A DNA stretch of 64,000 nt, taken from contig NC_043007.1 in assembly GCF_006345805.1 (NCBI RefSeq), positions 23,374,001 through 23,438,000 on the forward strand, written 5' to 3'. The stretch comes from Octopus sinensis. Lineage: Eukaryota. The first letter of the stretch is position 1. Every line of letters begins with the position of its first letter. Under the pieces are notes generated by a model. It made no database searches, was not told where the DNA came from, and saw nothing but the letters and a program-made list of their open reading frames with translations. Of the stretch, positions 8,529-62,133 are shown piece after piece. Both the position numbers and the translations under genes were made by a program.

Positions 8529-8565
8529 CCTTAACGTTTCGAGTATTAGTACTTCATCAGGAGAA
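8529..8565 (-). ncRNA. Degenerate minimal hammerhead-like motif in a Penelope-like terminal repeat remnant
   Basis: Minus strand CUGAUGA-AGUA(cuaa)UACU-C-GAAA-CGUU; stem I poorly paired; (TA)n tract nearby. Confidence 0.45.
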
Positions 8566-11067: not shown

Positions 11068-11313
11068 TATGTGTATATATATTTGCGAACTTTAGATTAG
11101 TTAAAATATGTTTCTGATATAGCCCAACTTCTAAACGAAAATTCTCTCTTATGGTACAAGGTATAAAAGCACCATATCTGCCCAATGCTGCCCTCTATCG
11201 GATTCCACAGACACAGCAGTCAATGGGAAATACCGAAGAGTGGTAACTCTAGGCAAACTTAATCAACGACGTTAATCGCAATCTGCTATTGAAACGTCAG
11301 GTGAGAAAAAATT

Positions 11314-11534
11314 CAGCAGTTTCGACACTAAGCTGTGTTTAGGCATAAGCGAACTTTAGGTTAAGTTAAAATATGTTTGTCACATATTTCAACTTTTAAA
11401 GGCAGATTCACTGCAGTTACTGTGGAGGAAAACTGCAGTGAATTAGCCTTTAGAGGTTGAAATATGTCACAAACATACTTTAACTAACCTAAGGTTCGCT
11501 TATGCCTAAACATTGCTTGGCGCTGATACTGTTG
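11314..11534. repeat. Long imperfect palindrome (foldback/MITE-like), arms ~105 bp
   Basis: 11314-11418 is the reverse complement of 11431-11534 with scattered mismatches; a third partial arm copy at ~11085-11135. Confidence 0.85.
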
Positions 11535-11559
11535 GATACATGTGTGTGTGTGTGTGTGT

Positions 11560-11797: not shown

Positions 11798-11820
11798 TTT
11801 TGTTATATATATATATATAT

Positions 11821-12800
11821 GGGATTGCTATATAGGTTTGTTATAGAGTTTAGCAAAGGGAGATTTTATCGTTATATGTTTTTAAGAGTTTTGGTTTATC
11901 ATGGTTTTTTTTTAGGGATTCGTGGTAATTTGTCTATTTTCGATGTGTGGTTGTTTTATTACATTGTTTCATTCATAATTTTTGAGTGGTGTTCGTTTTG
12001 CCACGTGAATATATTTTTTAATTCCATTTATTCCATTTCTCCATTCATTATTTTAAAAGATGTTCGTTTCCAGAGCGGTTATACTTTTTATACATATGTT
12101 AAGTTCCTTGGTAAAGTAATTTGTTGGTGTATATGTTGAGGCGTATATGTCTTGTGGGTGTGTGTGAGTGGGGTGGTGTTTGTATTTGTTATGGGTGTGT
12201 GGTTTACCGTGTGTATTGTGTGTGAATGTATAGGTTAAAGGGATTGCTATATAAGTATGTTATAGTGTTTAGTAAAGGGAGGTTTAATCATTATGTTTTG
12301 TGAGTTTTAGCTTATCATGGTAGTTTTATAAAAGAATCCATTCATAATTTTGTGTTTATTTGTCTGTGTGGGGTTGAGTGGGTTTTTGGAGTATATGTTG
12401 AGGTTATATGTTGTATAGGTATGTGTAAGTGGTGTGGGTATTTGTATATGTCGTGGTGTGTGGTTTGTACGTGTGTGTATTTGTGTGTGAATGTTTAGGT
12501 TAGGGGATTGCTATATAGGTATGTTATAGAGTTAGTAAAGGGAGATTTTATCATTATATGTTTTTATGAGTTTTGGTTATCATGGTAGGTTTGTTAAGGA
12601 ATCGTAGTATATTGTGTCTATTTGCGATGTCTGTTGTTTTATTGCATTGTTTCATTCATAATTTTTAAGTAGTGTTAGTTTTACCAAGTGAATATAATTT
12701 TTTAATTCCATTTATTTCCTTTCTCGTTCATAATTTTAAGTGATGTCCGTTTTCTAGAGCGTGAATGTGGGTTGTATGTGTGTGTGTGTGGGAGTATGAA
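11821..12800. repeat. Degenerate tandem repeat block (units start ~11821, ~12240, ~12503), probably a retroelement body
   Basis: gggattgctatataggt...gtttagtaaagggagattttatcattatatg...ttatcatgg recurs three times; GT-rich spacer recurs twice. Confidence 0.7.
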
Positions 12801-13193
12801 TAAGTATTGTGTTGAAGTATTTAGCTATTTTATTTATTTATAGTTGCCTAGACGTTTTTATGTGTATGTATAGGGATATATATATATTGTGTGTGATTTA
12901 GTGTATTTAGTTAGATATGGTTATATATAATAGGTATATGTGTATGGGTGTATATATAGTTTATTATTATATTATTATTATTTTTTGTTTTGTTTTATAT
13001 TTTATATTTTATATTTTATATTTTATATTTAATGTTGATAGGTTTATTTTAGTTTATATATTGTTTATATATTGATTATATATGGATTATATATAGGTTA
13101 TATGGATTATATATTTATATTTTTTCATTCATACTTAATTATTTTAAATTATTATTTTTATATTTTAAAATATTGATATTTTAGATTGGAAGT

Positions 13194-13236
13194 CCACCTG
13201 AAGATTGTCGATCAAGACAAGAAACAATTGTAGTGG
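13194..13236 (+). ncRNA. Type I minimal hammerhead ribozyme (Penelope-type), structurally complete
   Basis: CCAC-CUGAAGA-UUGUC(gaucaa)GACAA-GAAA-CAAUUG-UA^GUGG: stems I and II pair perfectly, core intact, palindromic stem III, GUA cleavage triplet. Confidence 0.8.
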
Positions 13237-13400
13237 CGGTTTTTTTGACTATTTATTAAAATTTTATGTATTGATTAAGTCTTCCTTGTTTGTTTGCAAA
13301 ATAGTGGTTTTGTCTCTAATAATATTTTATAATATTTACTATAAAATTGGATTTAATCCTAAATCTGATTTTTTCCCTGTAAATTTGGATTTATTCCCTA

Positions 13401-13445
<45 letters not shown>

Positions 13446-13447
<2 letters not shown>

Positions 13448-14535
13448 TGAGTGCGATGAGTAAACTGTTGCCATTTTATATTTTTATTTCGTGCATGCGT
13501 ATCGTTTGTTTTTGATTTTGTCAACTATACAGTATAATAGGGTCAGTTGGGCACCGTCCGTGAGAAAAACACAACTATGACGCAATTCACTCTGCCAGGA
13601 ATTTGGAAACAACATGCTGTACTGTTTGGCATTCGTGCCGGAAGCTCCAATACGAACATTTCAGAGTGTTTAAGTGTCAATCTGAGGGCTGTGCAGAGGA
13701 TTCGGAAAGAGTTAGATGCGTCTAATGGTGATTACGAAGGTATGGCAGTTCAGAAAACTCACTCTGATCGTTCTTATAAGAACTCCTGAATTTGTTGATG
13801 AGATCCAGGCCATGATTGACAACGAACATAATTTGGTTTTTCTCAGACGAGAAAAACTTCTGCCTGGATTAGATGGTGAACACACAGAACAACCGTTGGC
13901 TTGCTGTGTTCCCAAAACATGTACCGAGAGTGATGAAAATCAAACATCCAGTCAACATTACGACATTTGGAGTGATCACTAGTGGTGGCGACGTTAAGCC
14001 TCCATTCATCTTCCCACATGGCCTCAAACTCAACACGGAAGCCGACATCAAGTACCTGGAGGAGGTAGTGCTGCCCTGGCTCAAAAGGGTGTCTACTGGA
14101 AGACCCTTTGACTGGCAACAGGACTTTGCACCATGCTACACAAGCAGGAGAACCCAGTCATGGCTGTCAGACAATTTCTGCGACCACATTGCCCCTATCA
14201 TCTCGCCACCTAACTCCCCAAACTGCAACCCCCCTAATTATTATGTGTTGAGCGCAGATGAGCGGAAGACCAACAAAACTCTTTGTAACACCAAAGATGA
14301 ACTGAAAGCAAGGATTATGGCAGCATTCACCCACTTAAGCAAGGAGACCATCAAGAAGAGCTGCAGGAGATTCCGAAGTCGTCTGGAGGTCGTGTTTGAC
14401 GCCAATGGCGATTTTTATTGAATAAATTTACTATTTAGTATTTCAAGATATTTTTATATAATTTTGGTAAATATATGTTAGAATGAGATGTGAGTATTAT
14501 TTTCATTTTGCTTAATTTAGACGACAACTTATTCG
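13446..14535 (+). mobile_element. Tc1/mariner DD37D (maT-type) transposon, degenerate
   Basis: Carries the transposase pseudogene; left end follows (TA)n; right TIR eroded so the boundary is approximate. Confidence 0.75.
13577..14421 (+). pseudogene. DD37D transposase pseudogene
   Basis: HTH-like N-terminus, then WFFSDEKNF (in frame, followed by a stop), WQQD-37 aa-N (SPPNSPNCNPPNYY for WPPNSPDLNPLDY); frameshift, deletion and stop. Confidence 0.88.
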
Positions 14536-19223: not shown

Positions 19224-19421
19224 ATGTGACCACGTGTGTATCGTTGGCGATTTTTTTCCTCGTCTTCCCTTCCTTGGATCTTTCCTTTCCTATGTTCTGA
19301 CGAGAGCTCCGCTCGAAACGTTAAATCTTCCTTCTTTCTTTCCTTTCCTGAGCGTCCAATAATACTAATTGTTCCACGTTCCGTGTTGTTGTGTTTTCTC
19401 TTTGTGTTTTCTTGTTTCGAT

Positions 19422-54970: not shown

Positions 54971-55016
54971 AACACAACGTTTCGGCTGATATGCCCTCCA
55001 GCCTTCATCAGGTGTT
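54971..55016 (-). ncRNA. Type I minimal hammerhead ribozyme (Penelope-type), structurally complete
   Basis: AACAC-CUGAUGA-A-GGCUG(gagggcauau)CAGCC-GAAA-C-GUU^GUGUU: 5-bp stems I and II; palindromic AACGUU stem III. Confidence 0.8.
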
Positions 55017-61923: not shown

Positions 61924-62133
61924 ATGTGACCGCGTGTGTATCGTTGACGATTTTCTTTCTTCGTCTTCCCTTCTTTGAGACTTTCACTTTTTTCTATATT
62001 TCTGATGAAGAGCTCCGCTCGAAACGTTAAATCCTCCTTCTTTCTTTCCTTTCTTTAGCGTCCAATAACACTGTACTTATTCCACGTCCTCGCGTTGCTG
62101 TGTTTTCTCTTTGTTCATGTTTGGATTAACTAT
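61924..62133 (+). mobile_element. Penelope-like terminal repeat module (homologous to 19224-19428)
   Basis: Colinear match including hammerhead motif and ggattaactata end. Confidence 0.7.
61998..62032 (+). ncRNA. Minimal hammerhead motif
   Basis: AUUU-CUGAUGA-A-GAGC(ucc)GCUC-GAAA-C-GUU^AAAU; core intact, 4-bp A-U stem I. Confidence 0.68.

What the first reader, a model, noticed from the sequence alone, without database searches (positions are those of the whole stretch)
13194..13236. Structurally complete hammerhead with self-complementary ACAAUUGU stem III
Seen: CCAC/GUGG stem I, intact CUGAAGA and GAAA, UUGUC/GACAA stem II, and a GUA triplet with predicted cut after 13232. Stem II closes with U-A instead of the usual G-C. 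It sits in very AT-rich DNA at the end of a 1.6-kb block ending in (TA)n. Inference: this is the best candidate for a still-active ribozyme here, and could fold as a monomer or as a dimer.
Basis: partly seen in the sequence, partly recalled or inferred. Interest (0 to 1): 0.75.

Follow-up and report, generated by a model that had tools for sequence, protein, structure and literature searches.

The report
Jumping-gene hammerhead that likely pairs up
This is an intact hammerhead (self-cutting RNA) motif at the tail of a truncated copy of a young Penelope-like jumping gene, one of about 4,500 such motifs in this genome; it is a known kind of element, and it likely cuts only when two copies pair through their palindrome, which is untested.

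Summary
The anatomy at 13194-13236 is exactly as described and is not chance. The motif is the terminal hammerhead of a 1.6-kb, 5'-truncated copy of a Penelope-like retroelement inserted in (TA)n. The 36-nt core has 789 exact copies, and about 4,500 related motifs exist in the genome. Full-length 5.6-6.3-kb units encode a telomerase-like reverse transcriptase with the motifs that define the Hydra clade, whose hammerheads are already published. The dimer reading is supported. Two copies fold best as a double hammerhead, and the inner palindrome pair runs A-U, G·U, G-C across subfamilies, while the mismatch classes searched total only 14 scattered copies. The monomer reading is not supported (P about 0.03). 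The U-A closing pair is not special: sister subfamilies leave that position unpaired, and most published Hydra hammerheads lack G-C there. This copy is alone in the window, has no ORF, and is predicted to misfold with its own flank. Cleavage and expression are untested. The scan has already filed other hammerheads of this genome under the Hydra clade. Verdict: a new family of a known kind.

The parts
11804..11820 (.). (TA)n target remnant on the 5' side
   Evidence: sequence
11821..13406 (+). 5'-truncated copy (3' UTR / pLTR only) of a Hydra-clade Penelope-like element
   Evidence: 11821-13447 aligns as one piece at 96.2% to L034 and 95.5% to L041, downstream of their RT-endonuclease ORF; the matched sequence continues 5' in L034
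13194..13236 (+). type I hammerhead motif, sense to the element's ORF
   Evidence: same strand as the ORF in L034 and L036
13194..13197 (+). stem I 5' strand CCAC (pairs with 13233-13236)
   Evidence: P 0.75-0.94 per pair in the 43-mer; no compensatory change seen in 18 variants, which were selected on most of it
13198..13204 (+). core CUGAAGA (position 7 = A, free among subfamilies)
13206..13219 (+). stem II UGUC/GACA with variable loop; flanking U13205 and A13220 are not a kept pair
13224..13231 (+). palindromic stem III ACAAUUGU, predicted to pair between two molecules
13230..13232 (+). GUA triplet; cut predicted after 13232
   Evidence: A at the cleavage position in 100 of the 100 listed matches although the pattern allowed A, C or U
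13302..13307 (+). second UAGUGG, a possible decoy partner for stem I (prediction only)
13337..13406 (+). about 70-nt 'tail' between the family's two fixed 3' ends (+139 and about +208 from C3); this copy uses the outer end
13407..13446 (.). (TA)20 at the 3' end

Best explanation
The motif is the terminal type I hammerhead of a 5'-truncated copy of a young Hydra-clade Penelope-like retroelement inserted in (TA)n, and it likely cuts only as a pair, with two ACAAUUGU palindromes forming one 8-bp helix III. In full-length tandem units the two hammerheads lie 5.6-6.3 kb apart, one 271 nt before the ORF's ATG and one at the 3' end (shown). Pairing them would trim read-through RNA to unit length, probably with protein help (inferred). 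Copying into DNA likely starts inside uncut or re-joined RNA at two sites 139 and about 208 nt past the core, because inserted copies keep the whole cleavage junction and end at those two sites (ends shown; mechanism inferred from PMC11167929). This copy is a passenger. It would cut only if transcribed on the + strand and paired in trans with another copy (inferred).
For: Repeat status: 40 of 40 scored matches out of 1,252 candidates, the 39 other than the window itself at 98%; 789 exact 36-nt cores versus 0 for the reversed control; 4,490 family motifs versus 0. Full units: L036 has cores 5,626 nt apart and L034 6,301 nt apart, with the ORF between them. The ORF shows RIKWK, DKT, YRDD, CTCRDKSNC (CxCX5C), CYLC and CRH, matching the Hydra definition. 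Its model (pLDDT 83) has telomerase RTs as the top 7 PDB hits. 76 of 84 distinct hammerhead contexts run into (TA)4 at one of two ends. Dimer: the two-strand minimum-energy fold of the 43-mer is the double hammerhead, -22.0 versus 2 x -6.5 kcal/mol, with palindrome pair probabilities of 0.91-0.99. Stem III in the first 100 of 4,490 matches (hand count): G·U form 55, A-U form 29, central U·U form 9, G-C form 6, C·U 1. The G-C form has 259 copies. Forms with neither G3 nor U6 total 14, all mismatched and scattered. That 3/6 pair would close a 2-nt loop in a monomer (P 0.000). Core: 98 of the first 100 of 4,337 core-free matches are intact (control 7), while position 7 differs in 17 of 100.
Against: No cleavage or expression data. 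With its native 3' flank the hammerhead fold is lost: stem I P is 0.04 for 13185-13250 and 0.00 for longer stretches, and dimer palindrome pairing falls to 0.22-0.24. Copy counts are inherited, so the covariation rests on a few subfamily events. One search did not cover G3 mismatches or C3/U3 with U6. A subfamily with a central U·U breaks the perfect palindrome (9 of 100). Stems I and II show no compensatory change within the family. Pfam found nothing in the element's own ORF (0 relevant hits in 5 pieces; none for member 1). No tree with published Hydra sequences was built. Published minimal PLE hammerheads cleave weakly even as dimers (PMC4209133), and in one PLE the ribozyme was dispensable for insertion in vitro (PMC11167929).
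Confidence: 0.82

Rival explanations
1. The motif cleaves as a monomer, using a 2-bp stem III closed by a 4-nt loop.
For: A1-U8 and C2-G7 can pair within one molecule; adding them costs only 0.8 kcal/mol on top of stems I and II (-6.2 to -5.4). A fungal PLE hammerhead with a large helix III cleaves as a monomer (PMC4209133).
Against: Monomer stem III P is 0.03 or less. A monomer does not explain why positions 3 and 6 stay complementary. A single metazoan minimal motif showed no cleavage (PMC4209133).
Confidence: 0.08
2. The motif is kept as a protein-binding or structural signal of the element, and its cleavage is negligible or irrelevant.
For: Copies keep the uncut junction and end 139 or about 208 nt downstream. 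Native flanks are predicted to hide the fold. In the anole PLE, ribozyme mutants did not affect insertion and no RNA-seq reads ended at the cut (PMC11167929).
Against: What is conserved is exactly the catalytic consensus: position 7 and loop II are free, while the other core positions and the NUH triplet are kept. The anole ribozyme does cleave when protein is added.
Confidence: 0.08
3. It is a host-adopted ribozyme or a retrozyme-type tandem circular-RNA element.
For: Short tandem arrays of the motif exist elsewhere, e.g. three cores about 409 nt apart (L115). Animal retrozymes are reported to derive from PLE ends (bioRxiv 10.64898/2026.07.22.740005).
Against: This copy is single in the window, is about 96% identical to PLE 3' ends along its whole length, and has no copy-specific feature.
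Confidence: 0.02

Closest known systems
Hydra-clade Penelope-like elements and their hammerheads (Craig et al. 2021, PMC8557442; section 11 and Files S1, S2 read), e.g. Hydra-1_Obim, Hydra-1_cRog, Penelope-n_HM, Penelope-2_NV
   Same: RWK-like, DKT, CxCX5C, CxxC and CxH motifs; C-terminal endonuclease; (TA)n targets; sense-strand hammerhead near the 3' end with a short palindromic stem III. The junction before stem II is not G-C in 19 of the 26 Hydra rows of File S2 (U·U 14, G·U 4, U·C 1; my count).
   Different: A different family: none of the 26 rows has this hammerhead, and Hydra-1_Obim differs in all three stems. Units are 5.6-6.3 kb rather than 'generally <3 kb', because of a 3' UTR of about 3 kb or more and an Asn-rich insert (low-confidence residues 455-561).
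Minimal type I hammerheads of metazoan PLEs (Cervera and de la Pena 2014, PMC4209133; parts 1-2 of 4 read)
   Same: Short helix I, palindromic 15.2-16.2 region, location in pLTRs, mostly solo copies, opposite-strand pairs close together, predicted dimer.
   Different: An 8-nt palindrome rather than a minimal one; a 4-bp helix II rather than the 7-8 bp of the Schistosoma motifs; no G10.1-C11.1 pair.
Poseidon PLE of Anolis (Frangieh et al. 2024, PMC11167929; parts 1-2 of 4 read)
   Same: Two fixed copy ends separated by a 'tail' downstream of the hammerhead, AT-rich targets, and an uncut junction in inserted copies.
   Different: A different clade. The tail here is about 70 nt rather than 30-40, and the hammerhead lies 271 nt before the ATG rather than overlapping the ORF start.

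Membership tests
Type I hammerhead ribozyme | Core CUGANGA ... GAAA ... NUH in order | tested here: met
   conserved in 98 of the first 100 core-free matches
Type I hammerhead ribozyme | Helices I and II around the core, open at helix I | tested here: met
   predicted in the 43-mer; lost with longer native flanks
Type I hammerhead ribozyme | Stable helix III | tested here: inconclusive
   not as a monomer (P 0.03); predicted as an intermolecular 8-bp helix, with covariation
Type I hammerhead ribozyme | G10.1-C11.1 pair (typical, not required in PLE forms) | tested here: not met
   U/A here; A with A, C, G or U in sister subfamilies; not G-C in 19 of 26 published Hydra rows
Type I hammerhead ribozyme | Match to an Rfam hammerhead model | tested here: not met
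Type I hammerhead ribozyme | Self-cleavage after H17 | not testable with these tools
   needs an in vitro assay
Penelope-like element | Telomerase-like RT followed by a GIY-YIG endonuclease in one ORF | tested here: met
   RT: top 7 fold hits are TERTs, YRDD motif. Endonuclease: VVYK...VYIG motif aligned with homologues, of which 1 of 7 hits Pfam GIY-YIG weakly (E 0.012); no direct Pfam hit. One copy is open for 799 codons from RIKWK to the stop.
Penelope-like element | pLTR partial tandems, inverted 5' copies, optional tail | tested here: met
   L034 and L036 tandems; inverted upstream copies mostly ending at +139
Hydra clade | RWK motif; DKG changed to DKT | tested here: met
   RIKWK (K for the first residue; homologues RWK/RWR) and DKT
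Hydra clade | CxCX5C linker; CxxC and CxH near the C-terminus; no CCHH cysteine pair between GIY and YIG | tested here: met
   CTCRDKSNC, CYLC, CRH (CRN in L061); only one Cys between the two halves
Hydra clade | Insertion into (TA)n | tested here: met
   76 of 84 contexts
Hydra clade | Generally short (<3 kb) (typical, not defining) | tested here: not met
   5.6-6.3-kb units
Hydra clade | Phylogenetic placement with published Hydra RTs | not tested
   published sequences were seen only as supplement text and compared by eye
Non-LTR retrozyme | Tandem short units, each with a hammerhead | tested here: not met
   single motif in the window; the block is a PLE 3' end

The most novel reading that the evidence does not exclude
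The element carries a built-in off switch. A second UAGUGG 106-129 nt downstream captures the CCAC strand of stem I, just ahead of the inner copy end. This keeps the RNA uncut while it serves as template, and cutting needs a partner copy and protein. The commonest palindrome (G·U form) pairs fully with both the A-U and G-C forms, so thousands of truncated copies could license or block each other's cutting in trans. Support is prediction only: the second GUGG won (P>0.5) in 13 of 18 variants in short folds but in 6 of 18 in 240-nt folds, and the extended arm was no better than shuffles.
Probability: 0.15. Interest if true: 0.55.

Novelty: new member of a known kind. Interest (0 to 1): 0.22.

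Why it matters
Hammerheads at the ends of Hydra-clade PLEs are already catalogued, so the finding itself is ordinary. Its value is as a test set. What PLE hammerheads do is still open (PMC8557442 passages; PMC11167929). This young family offers natural A-U, G·U and G-C palindrome variants, which make the dimer model and cross-subfamily pairing directly testable. Searches returned no paper describing this family. Only 2 of the 10 supplement hits for the palindrome string were viewed, and both were unrelated.

Tried and rejected
Rfam: no hammerhead match. Folding z-score of 13170-13270: 0.09, uninformative. Pfam on 5 ORF pieces: nothing relevant. PDB sequence search with alignment A1: two retron-type RT hits at E about 0.45, not significant. 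The protein atlas gave no answer. Sequencing runs: no RNA holder listed. No reads were laid, so expression and in vivo cut ends remain open. Hammerheads of more distant relatives: the descriptor found one in only 4 of 19 divergent loci, and one of these (L089, minus strand) may be unrelated. U-A closing pair as a special feature: rejected. Extended stem I with the immediate flanks: no consistent pairing across 18 variants. Extended decoy arm under selection: not shown. Clustering of 5' breaks 13 nt before the core looked like a truncation hotspot, but one search shows a short subfamily with its own upstream sequence, so I dropped it. Lunse et al. (PMC5785218) was not held and was seen only as cited in PMC6765202 (passages).

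Full report
Observation. It is the only hit of my type I descriptor in the window. 200 shuffles gave a mean of 0.035 hits, and 0 of 200 had a palindrome of 6 nt or more. The bare core pattern alone is weak evidence: 9 matches against 3.35 expected. Rfam does not see the motif.

Host element. The window comes from a 2.72-Gb genome, likely a cephalopod (my inference, not tested). The 3' 261 nt found 1,252 candidates; all 40 scored matched, the 39 other than the window itself at 98%. The 36-nt core has 789 exact copies against 0 for the reversed control. The block 11821-13406 sits between (TA)n runs and aligns at about 96% to the 3' ends of longer units. Among 20 fetched 10-kb stretches, L036 and L034 hold two complete same-strand cores, 5,626 and 6,301 nt apart, with a broken RT-endonuclease ORF between them; L041 has the ORF behind an inverted copy. 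One copy is open for 799 codons from RIKWK to the stop but lacks the N-terminus. Its model (pLDDT 83.3, 52-sequence alignment) has telomerase RTs as the top 7 PDB hits. The protein family is large: 4,409 representatives at E<=0.001. The motifs RIKWK, DKT, CxCX5C, CxxC and CxH, the lack of a CCHH cysteine pair, and (TA)n targeting match the Hydra clade as defined in PMC8557442. That paper lists Hydra hammerheads, including one from an octopus family that differs from this one. I built no tree.

Ends. Of 84 distinct hammerhead contexts, 44 run into (TA)4 at an outer end about 208 nt past C3 and 32 at an inner end at +139; 8 do neither, and 3 of these are seen to read through toward the ORF. Inverted 5' copies mostly use the inner end. 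This is the PLE 'tail', which in the anole element marks two internal reverse-transcription starts (PMC11167929). Because copies carry the whole junction plus downstream sequence, the template was uncut or re-joined (inference).

Is the hammerhead under selection? With the core left free, 4,337 matches were found (control 7). Of the first 100 listed, 98 have all nine tested core positions intact, while position 7 differs in 17 (hand count). 503 sister-subfamily motifs lack U at the position of U13205; the 100 listed all have A there and A, C, G or U at the position of A13220. So the U-A is not a kept pair and stem II is effectively 4 bp. In File S2, 19 of 26 Hydra rows also lack G-C there, although Cervera and de la Pena call that pair highly conserved in minimal hammerheads generally. 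Downstream flank is also well conserved (0.86 identity to the window at +61 to +138, versus 0.84 over the motif, in 31 rows), so overall identity alone does not single out the motif. The pattern of free and fixed positions does.

Monomer or dimer. For the 43-mer, monomer stem III has P 0.03. The two-strand minimum-energy fold is the double hammerhead at -22.0 versus -13.0 kcal/mol for two monomers. Among the first 100 of 4,490 family motifs, stem III is ACGAUUGU in 55, ACAAUUGU in 29, ACAUUUGU in 9, ACGAUCGU in 6 and ACCAUUGU in 1 (hand count). The G-C form has 259 copies. Forms with neither G at 3 nor U at 6 total 14: A·C 8, A·G 3, A·A 2, U·C 1. Positions 3 and 6 thus move A-U, G·U, G-C. In one molecule this pair would close a 2-nt loop, so the simplest reading is pairing between molecules (inference). 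Limits: the counts are inherited copies of a few events, other mismatch classes were not searched, and one subfamily has a central U·U. More distant relatives (about 50-55% protein identity) have other stems and other 8-nt palindromes (L083, L084).

Against activity of this copy. With native flanks the fold is lost: stem I P is 0.35 at 13188-13243, 0.04 at 13185-13250 and 0.00 beyond, and dimer pairing drops to 0.22-0.24. The copy has no ORF and no second motif in the window. Minimal PLE hammerheads cleave weakly even as dimers (PMC4209133; review passages in PMC6765202), and the anole one needed protein. Expression is unknown.

Speculative part. A second UAGUGG lies 106-129 nt downstream in 18 of 18 variants and takes CCAC with P>0.5 in 13 of 18 short folds and 6 of 18 long folds. 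For this copy P is 0.75 and 0.02. The extended arm is no better than shuffles, and its 3' side is nearly invariant. The G·U palindrome pairs fully with both other forms. Both points are predictions.

Papers seen: PMC4209133 parts 1-2 of 4; PMC8557442 passages, section 11 and supplement text (part 2 of 59 plus two searches; figures not seen); PMC11167929 parts 1-2 of 4; PMC6765202 passages; bioRxiv 10.64898/2026.07.22.740005 part 1 of 5. Hammerhead numbering and the mariner label are recalled. The scan's earlier notes agree with a reading I had already stated; they are not independent support.

Verdict. A real, intact, likely dimer-dependent hammerhead of a new family within a known clade. Interest 0.22.

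Noticed in passing
window ~13450-14500 (+), ORF 13873-14421: Looks like a Tc1/mariner-type DDE transposase remnant right after the (TA)20 (label by eye and recalled). Pfam gave only DUF4838 at E 0.035, and no terminal inverted repeat was found.
   Followed up: partly
window 11311-11418 / 11431-11537: Long inverted repeat (two arms of about 108 nt), MITE-like, just upstream of the element.
   Followed up: partly
window 19297-19318 (+), 62002-62024 (+), 8537-8560 (-), 54980-55011 (-): Other hammerhead-like cores followed by GAAACGUU, a short palindrome. They fail my descriptor and look like another, decayed family.
   Followed up: no
L083:5970, L084:1229 (oriented as): Distant relatives have a CCGAUGA core (C for U at position 4) with palindromes ACUCGAGU and ACAGCUGU.
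   Followed up: no
L101-L113: A short non-coding, palindromic (MITE-like) subfamily of about 400-500 bp: two back-to-back hammerhead ends. Most share only about 13 nt upstream of the core with the long element.
   Followed up: partly
L115 (G000:C2:66798500-66801500): Three cores in tandem about 409 nt apart, each unit including the start of the ORF. A retrozyme-like array that could pair in cis.
   Followed up: no
L036:5083-8128: The 3' UTR of about 3 kb holds internal direct and inverted repeats (67-82% identity) and is far longer than in published Hydra elements.
   Followed up: no
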